From Eledone cirrhosa (lineage: Eukaryota): 64,000 nt of DNA. Location: assembly GCA_964016885.1 (NCBI GenBank), contig OZ024742.1, positions 327,360,001 through 327,424,000 of the forward strand. The letters are read 5' to 3'. How positions within the stretch are numbered: position 1 is the first letter of the stretch; every line of letters begins with the position of its first letter. A program made the position numbers and the translations under genes. Of this stretch, positions 8,463 to 63,804 are shown piece after piece. The notes beneath the pieces were generated by a model. That model worked only from the letters and a program-made list of their open reading frames with translations, was not told where the DNA came from and did no database searches.

Positions 8463-8970
8463 ATAAATTAATAAAAACAATGAATAAAAGCAAAGAAACA
8501 GTTCCTTATATTAAAAAATTCATCATTTTACGATCGTTTTTAGGATATGTGTGTTGGTATGTATATCATATAGATCTATGTGAACATTTTACAAACTATC
8601 AGAGGAAATATACATACCTACACATATATATGCTGTCTTCAGAAACATTTTTCTGAAGACAGCATCTATATGTGTAGGTATGTATATTTCCTCTGATAGT
8701 TTGTAAAATGTTCACTTAGATCTATATGATATACATACCAACACACACACACATATCCTAAAAACGATCGTAAAATGATGAATTTTTTTAATATAAGGAA
8801 CTGTTTCTTTGTTTTTATTCATTGTTTTTATTAATTTATCTTGACTCTGTTTTCCTGTGATTTTCATCGAAAAAATTTTAGAATACATCTTCTCTTTTCA
8901 TGATATTTGGATTACATTGAGTTCTTCATACGGATTGGACACTACCGTACATTTTGGTAGATTTATCTAC
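8463..8970. mobile_element. ~375-bp palindrome plus tail (Penelope-like foldback element)
   Basis: Arms 8463-8645 and 8650-8839 are reverse complements with a catt loop. Right arm has cattt-tt-CTGAAGA (8653)...aAAACGATCGTA-aaatg (8761-8777). Tail 8840-8970. Confidence 0.7.
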
Positions 8971-53068: not shown

Positions 53069-53142
53069 ATATATATATTTACATAGAACTCATAACATTA
53101 AGTTCATATGTAGATATGTCATTATTTGTAAACCAATTATTG

Positions 53143-53200
53143 TATTTTATCTGACGATAGCGTACCAAAATACTGGTACCCTTGAAATATATATAAAATA
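53143..53200 (+). ncRNA. Minimal hammerhead ribozyme candidate
   Basis: Stem I tatttta/taaaata, CTGACGA (53151-57), stem II GTACCA-aaatac-TGGTAC, GAAA (53184-87), stem III ATATAT, then A. Confidence 0.65.
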
Positions 53201-53260
53201 AATATGGTTTTATAAAGATAGTTTCCATTTATTAATATTATTGATATATATATATATATA

Positions 53261-53657
53261 TATTGGTAAACGGAATAGAAAATGCTGACAAATTGTTCAC
53301 ATTGAAAAATAGTTTAATTAGTAATTGTATTGGTTAGTATTCAGTTTTGGTTTTAAGTTTTACCGGTTGCGCATTTCTAAATGCTTTTCAAAAATAATTT
53401 TGAGATAGAGCGTCCGTGATGTTTGCTCTGATCTGAGCAAACATCACGGACGCTCTATCTCAAAATTATTTTTGAAAAGCATTTAGAAATGCACAACCGG
53501 TAAAACTTAAAACCAAAACTGAATACTAACCAATACAATTACTAATTCTCATTTATTCCTAATTAAACTATTTTTCACTGTGAACAATTTGTCAGCATTT
53601 TCTATTCCGTTTACCAATATATAATAACTTGTGTGTTACACCTCTATTCTTTTAACT
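53261..53657. mobile_element. ~360-bp palindrome plus tail in (TA)n
   Basis: Arms 53261-53428 and 53434-53620, centre gctctgatctgagc, tail 53624-53657. Decayed hammerhead-like fold at 53472-53502. Confidence 0.75.
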
Positions 53658-53669
53658 ATATATATATAC

Positions 53670-53985
53670 AAAATTAAATTGAGAGTGTCATGTCCGAGAC
53701 ATGTGCCATATCCACTGTAGAATATGCTCAAAGATTCCAATGAATAGATCCGAGCATTTTATATCAACTAGAAATTGATTGACATATATATATCTAAAAT
53801 AAACACATGAAACAATCACAGGGGATAATTTGTAAAGTGTGTAAGCACACACAGCTAGGTAGTTCTAGTTAGACTTTAATTAGTTACCTACCTAGCTGTG
53901 TGTGCTTACACACTTTACAAATTATCCCCTGTGATTGTTTCATGTGTTTATTTTAGATATATATATATGTCAATCAATTTCTAGT

Positions 53986-53989
<4 letters not shown>
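53670..53989. mobile_element. ~225-bp palindrome with left-side tail in (TA)n
   Basis: atcaactagaaattgattgac...cagctaggtag / ctacctagctg...gtcaatcaatttctagttgat. Confidence 0.75.
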
Positions 53990-54041
<52 letters not shown>

Positions 54042-54054
54042 GCATATATATATA

Positions 54055-54587
54055 GCGGCGATGAATTAGTTTAGCGAGGTTTTTTATATGAAATCGTGTG
54101 TCGAAACAAATATTGTTATACTTGGGGAGGGTCATATTTGTGTAATATTGCCAGAATTAATAACAGAACACACTCACTGTTTGGTTGGTTTTCGCTTCTC
54201 GCTGTCTTTTATATCTGTAATCTAACTTACTCGGTCCTCAATGTTGCCATTGACTGACTGACGGTCAAAAATAATACAGATACAATATAGACACAAACAC
54301 ATATATATAGTTTACATAATTTACATAAATCTTTCGTTGCACATCTGCAACATCGTCAGTGGTGTTATATTTTCCTCCTGTTGTGTTGTATGTCTACGCC
54401 ATTTTTTATTCAGTCTATCTATTATTATTTTTGACCGTCGGTCAGTCAATGGCAACATTGAGGACCGAGTAAGTTAGATTACAGATATAAAAGACAGCGA
54501 GAAGCGAAAACCAACCAAACAGTGAGTGTGTTCTGTTATTAATTCTGGCAATATTACACAAATATGACCCTCTCCAAGTATAACAAC
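54055..54587 (-). mobile_element. Hammerhead-bearing element with inverted partial copy and tail
   Basis: Minus-strand unit 54111-54410 (homologue of 6985-7256) with CTGACGA-t-GTTGCA-gatg-TGCAAC-GAAA at ~54332-54359. Inverted copy 54424-54587; tail 54055-54110. Confidence 0.72.
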
Positions 54588-54762
54588 ATATATATATATA
54601 TATGTGCATATATATATATATATTCTTTTAAATGTATTGGAAAAACAAACACTAGGTGTGAAGTATAGAAAAAAGTGAAGAATTTTATCAAAAGTTCATT
54701 CTTTAACATATGTTTAAATACAATATAAGTCTACATAATGCTGGTTGCATATTAATACCATT

Positions 54763-55377: not shown

Positions 55378-55594
55378 TTATAAGGAAAATGATAATAAAA
55401 GGAGGGTGCAAAAAGTACACCCAATACATATTTGAAATAATCTTTATAACATGTACAAAAACATTTTTGTGCATGTTATAAAGATCCTTTTTATATATAT
55501 ACTAGGTGCACTTTTTGAACCCTTCTTTTTTTATTGTTTTCCTTATATAACATGATTAGTATAGAACGTTTTCTAACGTCCACACTTTTTTCAC
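55378..55594. mobile_element. Diverged ~170-bp palindrome plus tail in (TA)n
   Basis: tataaggaaaa...atctttataacatgtacaaaaa / tttttgtgcatgttataaagat...ttttccttata. Confidence 0.65.
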
Positions 55595-55633: not shown

Positions 55634-55975
55634 TTGCAATCGAAAGGTTGTGAGTTCAATTCTCAAATCGGGTGATGTATTGTTTCCTTGAGCAAGACAC
55701 TTTATTTCACATTGCTCTAGTTTACTTAGCTGTAGAAATGTAATGATAAGGACTGGGGTCCCTATTATTCCACTGCAAAGAGGTGCCACGGCAAAAAAAA
55801 GCACCCAGCCCACATTGTAAAGTGGACGTGTAGGCGCCATGGAAAAAAGCACATAGCACTCACTGTAAATGAGGTTGGTGTTAGAAAGGGCATCCAACTG
55901 TAGAAGTCAAGCCAGAATCAGTTCCCATTCAACCCTTGCAAGCAGGGAAAAGCGGACGTAAAATGAAATGAAGAT
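55634..55975 (+). mobile_element. SINE family B (5'-truncated)
   Basis: Homologous to the element at 46999-47346 from ~47033 onward. Confidence 0.85.
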
Positions 55976-56017
55976 ATATATGTAAGTATATATATATTCA
56001 TTTCATTCATTCATTCA

Positions 56018-56346
56018 TTTCATTTTACGTCCACTTTTCCCTGCTTGCAAGGGTGGGACGGGAACTGATTCTGGCTTGATTTCTACAGCTGGATGCTCTT
56101 CCTAACACCAACCTCATTTACAGTGAGTGCTGGGTGCTTTTTTGCCGTGGCACCTCCACGACCACTTTGCAGTGGAATGATAGGGACCCCAGTCCCTATC
56201 ATCTCATTTCTACAGCTGAGTAAACTGGAGCAATGTGAAATAAAGTGTCTTGCTCAAGGAAACAACACATCACACGGTCTGAGAATTGAACTCACAACCT
56301 TTTGATTGCAAAGCCAATGCTCTAACCACTAAGCCATGTGCCTCCA
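56018..56346 (-). mobile_element. SINE family B, full length
   Basis: Reverse complement of 46999-47346. Confidence 0.88.
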
Positions 56347-56377
<31 letters not shown>

Positions 56378-56380
<3 letters not shown>

Positions 56381-56980
56381 ATATAAGATCAAAAGATGGT
56401 TAAAGGAGTTCCATGTATTTTATTATGCGCATTTCAAAAACAAACATCATCATGCAATAATATTTGTGTTTTCATCAGATAAAACAGGAGAACATGATAT
56501 GAAGGCTAAAAAACACTTGTGGATAGTGCAGTTTTAAATCAACATATGAAAAGTGGTTTTAGATTGATGTGTGATATTGGGAAAAATATTTTATTTAGAG
56601 AGGGGGGGTGGAAAGGATGAAAAAGGGGAGGAGATGAGAGTTTTTCATCCTTTCCACCCCCCCCCCCTCTCTAAATAAAATATTTTTCCCAATATCACAC
56701 ATCAATCTAAAACCACTTTTCATATGTTGATTTAAAACTGCACTATCAACAAGTGTTTTTTAGCCTTCAAATCATGTTCTCCTGTTTTATCTGATGAAAA
56801 CACAAATATTATTGCATGATGATGTTTGTTTTTGAAATGCGCATAATAAAATACATGGAACTCCTTTAACCATCTTTTGATCTTATATTATGTATACTCC
56901 AGTCCTACAAACTGTAGAGTGCTTCTTATCCGATATCTGCATTGCTTTATTGTACTACAATAAAACTCACCTCCTACACT
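56378..56980. mobile_element. ~514-bp near-perfect palindrome plus ~90-bp tail in (TA)n, with a hammerhead in each arm
   Basis: Arms 56378-56624 and 56641-56891, 16-nt loop, tail 56892-56980. Confidence 0.82.
56783..56853 (+). ncRNA. Type I hammerhead ribozyme candidate with intact core
   Basis: Stem I tgttttat/ataaaata, CTGATGA (56791-97), stem II caaatattat/atgatgtttg, GAAA (56834-37), palindromic stem III ATGCGCAT, then A (AUA triplet). Mirror copy on minus strand at 56416-56486. Confidence 0.78.
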
Positions 56981-56983
56981 ATA

Positions 56984-57015
<32 letters not shown>

Positions 57016-59486: not shown

Positions 59487-59732
59487 GTATACATATGTAG
59501 ATGCACCGAGTTTTTCACTGGTCACTTTACTGTGAGTGTCCAGCTATTCTGTATGTAAACACACAGACAAACCGGTTTTTAGAGTCATACTGGTTTTTGA
59601 GGAAACACCTTTCCTCTATTCTAAACCAGTATGACTCTAAAAACCGGTTTGTCTGTGTGTTTACATACAGAATAGCTGGACACTCACAGTAAAGTGACCA
59701 GTGAAAAACTCGGTACATCTACACATGTATAC
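59487..59732. mobile_element. ~245-bp near-perfect palindrome
   Basis: Mirror ORFs 59501-59692(+) and 59527-59718(-) have nearly identical translations; arms 59487-59596 and 59623-59732. Confidence 0.85.
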
Positions 59733-60864: not shown

Positions 60865-62680
60865 TGTATTGAACAGAACCTCATACTCTTTCATTTTTTT
60901 GTTGATTTCAGTAAGACATTTGAATGTTTTATGGTTGGTTTTCCCTAAATTGGATGCCCTCAAAAGTTTGTAAATATATTGAAATAGAAGGAACTTGGTG
61001 GTGGTCGATAGGAGTGCAAGAAATAACAGCTAAATAGACGGAACTTCATGCAGGCGTGCTACAAATAGCATCTAAATAGGGGGAACTTCAAGGTAGTCTA
61101 AAGGTTTACTAGAAATTGCATCTAAATAGGTGAACATCATGGTGGTCGATAGGTGTGCTAGAAATAGCAGCTATATCACCTAAACAGGGGTAACCTCACA
61201 GTGGCACATAGGTATGCTAGAAAGAGCAGCTAAACAATGTGCTAGAAAAAGTAGCTGAAAAGGGGGAATATATTGAACCTATGGACCACCATGAGGTTTC
61301 CCCTAATTAGTTGCTATTTCTAGTACACCAGATGTAGCTGCTATATCTAGCACACCTACAGACCATCATGAGGTTTTCCCTATTTAGCTGATGTAGCTGC
61401 TATATCTAAAACACCTAAGACCACAATGAGTTTCCCGCTATTTCGCTGCTATTTCTAGAACACCTATCGATCACTGTGTGTTTTCTCTATTTAGCTACTA
61501 TTTGTAGCACACCTATGGACCACCATCTCGATGTAGCTGCTATTTCTAGCTATTTCTAGCACACATTCTTGGACCATGCATGAGGTTACCCCTATTTAGC
61601 TATACCACTTTGATGTTTCCTCTTTTTTAGCTACTATTTCTAGCACACCTATGGACCACCATGAGTTTCTTCTATTTAGCTGTTATTTCTAGACCACCTG
61701 TGAACCACTATGACTTTCTTCTATTTAGCTGCTATTTCTAGCACACTGATGGCCCACCACGAGTTTGTCGCCATTTAGCCGATGTAACTGCTATTTCTAG
61801 CTATTTCTAGTACACCTATGGACCACCATGAGTTTCTTCTATTTAGCTGATATTTCTAGCACACATATGGACCACCATCAGTATCGCTCTATTTAGCAGC
61901 TGTTTCTAGCACACCTATGGACCACCATGAGGTTCTTTTTATTTAGCTGATGTAGCTGCTAATTCTAGCGCACCTACGGGCCGCCATAAGGTTCCCTCTA
62001 TTTAGCTGATATAACTGCTATATCTAGGACACCTAAAACCACAAAGAGTTTCCCGCTATTTAGCTGCTACTTCTTCTAGAACACCCATGGACCATCGTAT
62101 GGTTGCCCCTATTTAGCTGCTATTTCTAGCACAATAATGGATCACCATGAGTGCTATTTCTAGCACACCTTTGGACCAAGCATGAGGTTTACCCCATTTA
62201 GCTACTATTTCTAGCACAGCTATGGACAATCATGGCGATCCCCATATTTAGCTGCTATTTCTAGTACATCTATGTATCACTTTGAGGTTCCCCTTTTTTA
62301 GCTGCTATTTCTAGCACACCTATGGACCACCATGGGTTTCTTCTATTTAGCTGCTATTTCTAGCACACTTATGAACCCCCATGAGTTTCTTCTATTTAGC
62401 TGCTATTTCTAGTACACCTATGGACCACCATGAGTTTCTTCTATCTAGCTGCTATTTCTAGTACACTTATGAACCACCATGAGTTTCTTCTATTTAGCTG
62501 CTATTTCTAGCACAGCTATGGACCACCATGAGTTTATTCTATTTAGCGGCTATTTCTAGCACTCCTAAGGACCACCACGAAGTTCCCTCTATTTCAATAT
62601 ATTTACAAACTTTTGAGGGCATCCCAATCAAATGCCTTACTGAGATCAACAAAAAAATGGAAGAGTTTCTGTTCAATACA
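60865..62680. mobile_element. Foldback-type element: long TIRs enclosing inverted arrays of a 49-bp repeat
   Basis: tgtattgaacagaa...ggatgccctcaaaagtttgtaaatatattgaaatag is mirrored at ~62588-62680. Unit tatttagctgctatttctagcacacctatggaccaccatgagtttcttc (period 49: 62344 and 62393). Orientation flips at ~61270. Confidence 0.75.
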
Positions 62681-62706
62681 GTATATATATATATATATAT
62701 ATATAT

Positions 62707-62788
62707 ATCCTAGAAACGATCGTTAAATAATGAACTTTTTTTGTTTAATATAAGGAACTGTTTCATTGTTTTATTCATTATTTTTTTA

Positions 62789-62795
<7 letters not shown>
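62707..62795 (+). mobile_element. Fragment of the 8463-8970 family
   Basis: atcctagaaacgatcgttaaataatgaa...aatataaggaactgtttc matches 8755-8839 and keeps the canonical GAAA. Confidence 0.75.
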
Positions 62796-62826
<31 letters not shown>

Positions 62827-62923
62827 CAAAGAGTATTTAATTTATTGGTTATTCAAATCTATTTATAACAGATTCGAAGCACTCTACAATTTTTCTTCTG
62901 GAGTATAATATCAATAATATTAA

Positions 62924-62980
62924 TTGTTTCTACTTTAGGCACAAGGCCAGCAATTACCCAGTGCATTACTGGTACTTTAT
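62924..62980 (-). mobile_element. SINE family A 3' fragment
   Basis: TSD tcaataatattaat on both sides. Confidence 0.8.
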
Positions 62981-63024
62981 TCAATAATATTAATAAATGG
63001 AAACTATCTTTATAAAACCATATT

Positions 63025-63088
63025 TATTTTATTATATATATTTCAAGGACACCAACATTTTTTTGGTATGCTCTCATCGGATAAAATA
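63025..63088 (-). ncRNA. Degenerate hammerhead, homologue of 53143-53200
   Basis: Minus strand tattttat-CCGATGA-gagcATACCAA..TTGGTGTcctt-GAAA-tatatata-ataaaata. The flank taaatatggttttataaagatagtttccattta is shared with 53199-53231. Confidence 0.55.
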
Positions 63089-63164
63089 CAAAAGTTGTTT
63101 TATAGATAATGACATAATCAAAAACAAGAACTTATCGTTTTAAGTTCTGTTCAAACTATATATG

Positions 63165-63804
63165 CTAGAGTGCTAGAAATAGCAGCTAAACAGGGGGATG
63201 CTTATGGTGGTCAATATGTTTGATACAAACAGCTGCTAAATAGAGGTAACCTCATGGTTATCCATAGGTGTGCTAGAAATAGTAGCTAAATAGGGGACGC
63301 CTCGTGTTGATCCGCAGTTGTGCTAGAAATAGTAGCTAAATAGTTGGAACCTCATGGTGGTCTATAGGTGTGCTAGAAATAGCAACTAATCAGGGGAAAA
63401 CTCATGGTGGTCGATAGGTTCAATATATTTACTATTATGGACCACCATCAGGTTCCTTCTATTTAGCTGCTCTTTCTAGCACACCTATGGACCACCATCA
63501 TATCCCCCCTATTTAGCTGCAATTTCTAGCACAACAATAGAACATCATGAGGTTCCCAAAATTTAGCTGCAGTTTCTAGTACACCTATAGACAACCATGA
63601 GGTTCCCACTATTTAGCTGCTATTTCTAACAAACATATGGACCACTATAAGGTTATCCCTATTTAGCTTCTATTTCTAGCACGCTTATGGACCACCACAC
63701 CTATAGTACCTGCTATTTGGCTGATGTAGCGGCTAATTCTAACACGTCAATGGACAAACATGGGATTACCCTTATTTAGCTGCAATTTCTAGCAAAACAT
63801 GGAC

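What the first reader, a model, noticed from the sequence alone, without database searches (positions are those of the whole stretch)
56378..56980. Best-preserved example: 514-bp palindrome with an intact hammerhead on each strand
Arms of ~247 bp differ at only a few positions, suggesting a young or homogenised copy. 56783-56853 has a canonical core (CTGATGA, GAAA, AUA triplet), an 8-bp stem I, a ~10-bp stem II and palindromic ATGCGCAT. The mirror lies at 56416-56486. A read-through transcript from either direction would contain one ribozyme plus its full antisense, so ribozyme folding would compete with a long hairpin (inference).
Basis: partly seen in the sequence, partly recalled or inferred. 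Interest (0 to 1): 0.75.

Follow-up and report, generated by a model that had tools for sequence, protein, structure and literature searches.

The report
Twin-primed Hydra Penelope hammerhead palindrome
This palindrome is two short end-pieces of a very abundant Penelope-like jumping gene joined head to head inside a TA repeat, a known kind of insertion, and its sister copies suggest both halves were likely copied from one RNA at two fixed start points, which would help explain how this class of element inserts.

Summary
The palindrome and both type I hammerhead motifs are real, but this is not a special or best-preserved element. It is an ordinary insertion of a Hydra-type Penelope-like retroelement (3.9-kb unit, 821-codon RT/GIY-YIG frame) whose hammerhead 22-mer occurs 23,403 times in this genome. 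Opposite-strand hammerhead pairs and a one-sided tail are already in print. Sister copies add mechanism. In 98 of 101 inverted insertions one arm ends at site S (56891) and the other 87 nt further at L (56978), nearly all in (TA)n. The two arms share subfamily variants. Of 170 arm starts, 48 pile up at window position 56722, usually next to an extra G (11 of 15 versus 7 of 51 elsewhere), as at a capped RNA start. Some L arms hold only the tail. This favours two target-primed cDNAs from one uncleaved RNA over fold-back. A read-through transcript would be a hairpin with no ribozyme fold. No RNA data were available. The scan has reported the same reading for other families and genomes.

The parts
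56346..56377 (.). Left (TA)n target tract; a 32-nt interrupted stretch recurs in the right flank (possible target duplication, inconclusive)
   Evidence: direct matches 14 of 98 versus 5 of 98 in each control
56378..56640 (-). S arm: 5'-truncated 3' end of the element (3' UTR end plus pLTR), ending at the short site S
56416..56486 (-). Type I hammerhead motif of the S arm
56547..56547 (-). Mirror of the predicted capped start site
   Evidence: inferred from sister copies
56624..56641 (.). Inversion centre: 17-nt unpaired loop belonging to the S arm; blunt joint 56640|56641, no microhomology or insert against natural copies L032/L033
56641..56978 (+). L arm: 5'-truncated 3' end of the element plus the 87-nt tail, ending at the long site L
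56722..56722 (+). Predicted capped transcription start (A of TTCATA); family-wide hotspot of arm starts with an extra G. Both arms of this copy run past it.
56783..56853 (+). Type I hammerhead motif of the L arm; predicted cut after 56845; palindromic helix III ATGCGCAT at 56837-56844
56892..56978 (+). Tail between sites S (56891) and L (56978); in full units it is the leader just before the ORF
56979..57015 (.). Right (TA)n target tract

Best explanation
The palindrome is a head-to-head insertion of two truncated 3' end-pieces of a Hydra-type Penelope-like retroelement in a (TA)n tract, likely made when both ends of one DNA cut primed reverse transcription on the same uncleaved RNA at two fixed sites 87 nt apart. 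Shown: element identity, the two fixed ends, one of each per insertion, the TA target, shared subfamily variants in both arms, and the start hotspot with an extra G. Inferred steps: (1) the GIY-YIG domain cuts both strands of (TA)n; (2) one 3' end primes at L and the other at S; (3) each cDNA runs until it stalls, meets the other priming site, or runs off the capped 5' end; (4) the two cDNA ends are joined by end-joining (blunt, microhomology or short insert). Both arms of this copy pass the predicted start by 80-95 nt, so its template was likely a read-through tandem transcript. The hammerhead is the element's normal pLTR ribozyme, under selection in source copies and predicted to be silent here in any read-through RNA.
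For: Identity: arms match the pLTR of 3893-bp tandem units with an intact 821-codon frame. The predicted fold matches reverse transcriptases, with telomerase among the top hits. Atlas neighbours carry HTH_animal, GIY-YIG and RVT_1. Hydra motifs are present. End rule: 98 of 101 outward end pairs are S+L, 3 L+L, 0 S+S (one locus counted twice). In the set not selected on the tail it is 43 of 44 (p 3e-12). 196 of 202 ends run into (TA)n. One template: diagnostic sites agree between arms in 46/46, 46/48, 47/48 and 47/49 pairs (random 30, 22, 26, 20); median arm distance 0.6% versus 3.8% to other insertions. Two separate cDNAs: 13 of 85 L arms start at -14 or later, and 7 of them lie wholly beyond S, so they do not overlap their partner. 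The S arm is the 5'-longer one in 44, the L arm in 18, equal in 23. Capped start: 48 of 170 starts fall at -173..-168. At joints with 1-12 inserted letters the touching base is G in 11 of 15 hotspot arms versus 7 of 51 others (p 2.4e-5). Read-through copies have C there in 143 of 145. Genome-wide the base before the 17-mer is C 9085 (6269 with native upstream), G 2602, T 2059, A 796. L296/L297 has G on both arms. Ribozyme selection: 8 of 8 common stem variants keep pairing versus 5 of 60 rare ones. In print: a Poseidon element cuts and extends both strands and starts at two internal sites bounding the tail (PMC11167929); an extra G marks cap copying in L1 (PMC11702581).
Against: No RNA, cap or cleavage data; the start site and the cap are inferred from DNA only. 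Some Gs are ambiguous: 5 of the 30 G loci are a single central C/G base, and several more fit microhomology. T is nearly as common as G genome-wide. Three L+L pairs break the rule (one, L117, looks like two insertions). Shared variants cannot separate one RNA from two RNAs of one source locus, or from copy-of-copy. The 8 stem variants are one-sided wobble changes on related subfamilies, so their p-value is overstated. Most samples come from the first 71 Mb of contig C1 and were selected by short motifs. Arm starts come from BLAST ends and can be off by a few nt. 11 of 85 joints have gaps over 12 nt and were not resolved. This copy itself does not show the extra-G class.
Confidence: 0.68

Rival explanations
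1. Self-priming or fold-back: one cDNA (or an antisense RNA template) snaps back and is copied into a hairpin, which the endonuclease resolves with staggered cuts at S and L (the kind of model proposed in PMC3846280).
For: It explains identical arms and one-of-each ends. 39 of 85 joints show overlap. 867 loci have a perfect centre on self-complementary CATATG. L152 centres on the helix III palindrome.
Against: Seven L arms do not overlap their partner at all. Either arm can be the 5'-longer one. Extra G can sit on both arms (L296/L297). 33 of 85 joints have untemplated inserts. This locus has a blunt joint with no pairing for a snap-back.
Confidence: 0.17
2. Two different RNA molecules, each primed from one DNA end by an asymmetric protein complex, then joined.
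For: It also gives S+L ends and overlapping arms without strand displacement. Two-transcript inverted insertions occur for L1.
Against: Arms almost always share subfamily variants although several subfamilies coexist. Tail-only L arms stopping near S (starts +3, +7, +9 and -7 to -11) suggest collision on one RNA.
Confidence: 0.1
3. An autonomous or selected palindromic ribozyme unit (MITE-like, or a regulatory hairpin/ribozyme switch).
For: A common short size class exists (867 identical centres). Such hairpins could feed small-RNA or editing pathways if transcribed.
Against: Joints vary copy by copy and sizes run from about 150 bp to over 6 kb. The ends are unequal. This copy's joint was not seen in other fetched loci. 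No host exon was evident in the window's open frames (by eye). The ribozyme fold is excluded in the full transcript.
Confidence: 0.03
4. Fold-back assembly artefact.
For: No public contig piece bridged this locus's joint.
Against: The arms differ at 3 sites plus an indel, end at different biological sites, and have different flanks. Thousands of such loci exist, and short-read contigs hold the family's joints.
Confidence: 0.02

Closest known systems
Hydra clade of Penelope-like elements (PMC8557442), e.g. Hydra-1_Obim
   Same: C-terminal GIY-YIG-type domain, DKT, CxCX5C linker, CxxC and CxH flanking E and N, no CCHH, hammerhead, (TA)n target. RT blocks visibly resemble Hydra-1_Obim in the supplement alignment (by eye).
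   Different: A different family: its hammerhead differs from the one listed for Hydra-1_Obim, and five short motifs were not found in the supplement. The unit is 3.9 kb (Hydra generally <3 kb), RWK reads RWT, and the tail is 87 nt.
EN+ Penelope-like insertions with an inverted pLTR and one-sided tail (PMC3846280, PMC8557442)
   Same: Inverted 5'-truncated copy next to the direct one, tail on one end, partial tandems.
   Different: There the tail is 30-40 bp and called optional; here it is 87 nt and on exactly one arm in 98 of 101 pairs. The published reading is self-priming on an antisense template.
Opposite-strand hammerhead pairs of Schistosoma PLEs (PMC4209133)
   Same: Two hammerheads 100-700 bp apart on opposite strands; dimer-type helix III; long helix II.
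   Different: Here the first pair of helix II is A-U or G-U, not G-C, and no extra base follows A9.
PAc Poseidon element in vitro (PMC11167929)
   Same: Both strands cut and extended in AT-rich DNA; two internal start sites bound the tail; uncleaved RNA is the main template.
   Different: That work does not assign one site to each DNA end, and in the parts I read it does not explain inverted copies or a capped run-off.
LINE-1 twin priming (PMC11702581)
   Same: Both target ends prime on one RNA; inverted cDNAs are joined by end-joining; an extra G comes from the cap.
   Different: L1's second primer anneals at variable sites and the arms barely overlap. Here both sites are fixed and the arms usually duplicate the same stretch.
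Non-LTR retrozymes (bioRxiv 10.64898/2026.07.22.740005, introduction)
   Same: Type I hammerhead related to PLE pLTRs.
   Different: Retrozymes are short head-to-tail tandem units without a protein. This is a head-to-head pair of ends of a coding element.

Membership tests
Penelope-like element (EN+) | Single ORF with telomerase-like RT | tested here: met
   821-codon frame; Foldseek hits to TERT at E ~1e-7, other RTs score similarly; Pfam and NCBIfam gave no hit for it
Penelope-like element (EN+) | C-terminal GIY-YIG endonuclease | tested here: met
   LIYECK-x8-TYFG...R...H aligned with homologs; Atlas GIY-YIG clusters; Pfam GIY-YIG in 1 of 22 aligned proteins. Support is motif-level.
Penelope-like element (EN+) | pLTR with hammerhead, tandem and inverted copies, one-sided tail | tested here: met
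Hydra clade | DKG changed to DKT | tested here: met
   SDKTN at 122-126
Hydra clade | CxCX5C linker | tested here: met
   C659, C661, C667
Hydra clade | CCHH absent; CxxC and CxH beside conserved E and N | tested here: met
   One Cys in the GIY-YIG core; C759/C762; C787/H789
Hydra clade | RWK motif | tested here: inconclusive
   RWT in this protein; RWK in most homologs
Hydra clade | (TA)n insertion and canonical hammerhead | tested here: met
   196 of 202 ends
Hydra clade | Placement in the RT tree with Hydra references | not tested
   Reference sequences were only read in the supplement; no tree was built
Neptune clade | CX2-5CxxC linker and CCHH motif | tested here: not met
   against the definitions
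Type I hammerhead | Core C3-A9, G12-A14, A15.1-U16.1, H17 with stems I-III | tested here: met
Type I hammerhead | G10.1-C11.1 pair | tested here: not met
   A-U here, G-U in 17 of 183 arms. It is a conserved preference, not part of the catalytic core.
Type I hammerhead | Self-cleavage | not testable with these tools
   Needs transcription assays. About 3 of 221 arms start within 1 nt of the predicted cut.
Non-LTR retrozyme | Short tandem units, no ORF | tested here: not met
MITE / fold-back DNA transposon | Equal terminal inverted repeats and copies sharing one internal structure | tested here: not met
   Unequal ends and variable joints

The most novel reading that the evidence does not exclude
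Penelope-like elements insert by obligatory asymmetric twin priming. One DNA end always starts at site L and the other at site S on the same capped, uncleaved RNA. Much of the time the enzymes copy only the leader and run off the cap, leaving an extra G. The inverted pLTR, the one-sided tail and the opposite-strand hammerhead pairs are then all one footprint of the normal reaction, and the genome maps the start site and both priming sites to the base.
Probability: 0.6. Interest if true: 0.72.

Novelty: new member of a known kind. Interest (0 to 1): 0.45.

Why it matters
The locus itself is ordinary. Its family matters because how Penelope-like elements form tandem and inverted copies is named as an open question (PMC8557442), and the model I found in print is self-priming on an antisense template (PMC3846280). 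This young, high-copy family, with intact frames, gives exact testable coordinates: start 56722, ribozyme cut 56845, priming sites 56891 and 56978. It also implies thousands of long perfect hairpins in one animal genome, a likely source of double-stranded RNA where they are transcribed (untested).

Tried and rejected
Rfam: no hammerhead match, only chance miRNA-type hairpin hits. Pfam, NCBIfam and PDB sequence searches did not name the protein. I first filed it as Neptune and wrote CCHH in a note; earlier notes pointed to Hydra, and searches confirmed that and showed CCHH is absent. No RNA holder was listed. This locus's joint was not bridged by a listed contig piece. The target-duplication test was inconclusive. 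A pile-up of arm starts at the ribozyme cut looked possible (9 of 170 at -50..-40) but shrank to about 3 of 221 within 1 nt, in motif-selected sets. One search found only 3 pairs because of a wrong length window and was redone. One search stopped early and was completed. In one search, diverged read-through copies were labelled as junctions, so I used only its read-through count. Searches that did not turn up a twin-priming or cap-G account for Penelope elements. The library lacks most subscription papers and Repbase reports, so this is not proof of absence. No RT tree and no complex prediction were run.

Full report
Observation. The window lies in a 3.0-Gb, (TA)n-rich animal genome (G000:C3:327360001-327424000). 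The inverted repeat at 56378-56891 is real: 3 substitutions and one 4-nt indel between arms, folding z -58. A type I hammerhead motif sits at 56783-56853 (+) and 56416-56486 (-), the only two hits of my stem-checked scan in 64 kb. Rfam does not report it. Isolated, 56770-56870 forms stems I and II (probabilities 0.87 and 0.99); in the full palindrome these fall to 1e-64 and 1e-26. Helix III can only close as a dimer through ATGCGCAT.

What it belongs to. The right arm has 57 scored matches in the genome (a lower bound). Several lie downstream of an RT-endonuclease frame. A protein search gave 21,820 candidates, of which 150 were scored, many with open frames near 821 codons. Twenty fetched stretches show a 3893-bp tandem unit: hammerhead repeat, 87-nt tail, ORF, long 3' UTR. 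Exact-match counts are 23,403 for a hammerhead 22-mer, 11,973 for a tail 21-mer and 5,952 for this copy's loop II variant. The 2:1 ratio is what two hammerhead arms per tail would give. The AlphaFold model (pLDDT 78.7) matches reverse transcriptases, with telomerases filling most top ranks. Against the Hydra definition (PMC8557442 section 11) the protein has DKT, CxCX5C, CxxC, CxH and no CCHH. It is a different family from Hydra-1_Obim. I built no tree.

Anatomy of this copy. The left arm (56378-56640, minus strand) ends at site S. The right arm (56641-56978) carries the tail and ends at site L. Both ends run into (TA)n. The arms meet bluntly when compared with natural read-through copies. Both pass the predicted start site at 56722 by 80-95 nt, so the template was likely a tandem read-through RNA. 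It is the only copy of this family in the window.

What sister copies show. I fetched loci in genome order from the hit lists on contig C1: 61 selected on the hammerhead, 52 on the tail and 15 on the loop variant. By BLAST, 42 of 61, 38 of 52 and 10 of 15 had an inversion joint; 86 of 94 joints were S+L, 1 was L+L and 7 were unresolved. By end motifs, 98 of 101 pairs were S+L, 3 L+L and none S+S; one locus was counted twice and the window is included. The hammerhead-selected subset gives 43 of 44. Arms of one insertion share subfamily sites far beyond chance, and this copy's 1.3% arm divergence is unremarkable. Among 85 distinct S+L insertions, 48 of 170 arm starts lie within six bases of the A at 56722. 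Thirteen L arms are tail-only or nearly so, and either arm can be the longer. At joints with short inserts, G touches hotspot arms in 11 of 15 cases against 7 of 51 elsewhere. Genome-wide only 6,269 of 14,542 copies of the 17-mer have the native five bases upstream, and G is the commonest foreign base. Inspection of 30 G loci found one diverged read-through copy, five ambiguous single-base centres and several microhomology cases. Public short-read contigs show the same joints, often with G before 56722. Starts at the ribozyme cut are rare. Common stem variants keep pairing in 8 of 8 cases and rare ones in 5 of 60, so the ribozyme fold is under selection in source elements, though no change is two-sided.

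Mechanism. Shown: identity, fixed ends, the one-of-each rule, target, arm concordance, hotspot and G bias. Inferred: a double-strand cut in (TA)n, two primings at S and L on one uncleaved RNA, run-off at a cap, and end-joining. Fold-back explains the symmetry but not the non-overlapping arms, G on both arms, or this blunt joint. Two separate RNAs fit the arm concordance poorly. I put twin priming on one RNA at about 0.68.

Comparison with what is known. Opposite-strand hammerhead pairs 100-700 bp apart were noted in Schistosoma PLEs (PMC4209133, parts 1-2 of 4 read). The inverted pLTR with a tail on one side, and the self-priming model, are in PMC3846280 (passages) and PMC8557442 (passages, section 11 and supplement searches). 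Two-strand extension, two internal starts and dispensable ribozyme cleavage are in PMC11167929 (parts 1-2 of 4). Cap-derived G and twin priming for L1 are in PMC11702581 (passages). For retrozymes I read part 1 of 5 of bioRxiv 10.64898/2026.07.22.740005. The initiator-like reading of TTCATA is recalled, not from a call. My searches found no paper that joins these into a twin-priming account for Penelope elements. Earlier notes of this scan reached the same reading for other families in this genome and others; these are not independent support. I had written my mechanism down before seeing them, and took the Hydra lead from them.

Verdict. A real, ordinary insertion of a family of a known clade that I did not find in the published Hydra set. 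It is not a ribozyme switch. Its value lies in the family statistics, which make a long-open mechanism question directly testable. Interest 0.45.

Noticed in passing
window 14071-44033: 30-kb satellite array of a 46-bp unit, 651 copies, 93% matches.
   Followed up: no
window 8463-8839, 53257-53623, 53760-53992, 54110-54589, 55379-55547, 59487-59732: Six further palindromes of 170-480 bp from unrelated families, several edged by (TA)n; possibly stubs of other Penelope-like families.
   Followed up: partly
window 53142-53200 (+), 54359 (-), 7035 (+), 55186 (-), 52529 (-): Other hammerhead-core-like motifs. Those at 54359 and 7035 share nearly the same sequence, and 53151 has a stem II and AT-rich flanks.
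   Followed up: no
window 55634-56311: Two copies of a likely tRNA-related SINE-like repeat in inverted orientation just left of the finding; weak tRNA match at 56271-56339.
   Followed up: no
window 61052-63700: 49-50-bp minisatellite with inverted blocks.
   Followed up: no
L053:1839-4238: The protein has an Asn-rich, low-confidence insert (about residues 580-657) before the Cys linker, which shorter homologs appear to lack; it recalls the N-rich inserts of rotifer Penelope elements.
   Followed up: no
L053 3' UTR: The 3' UTR carries internal direct repeats (about 220 bp) and differs in length between subfamilies.
   Followed up: no
window 56801 and 56830: The C-U mismatch in hammerhead stem II is kept across subfamilies and may be a tertiary contact with the internal loop of stem I.
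   Followed up: no
L245, L307, L310, L326, L341: Some joints hold short extra copies of the start-site sequence, suggesting repeated template jumps at the RNA 5' end.
   Followed up: no
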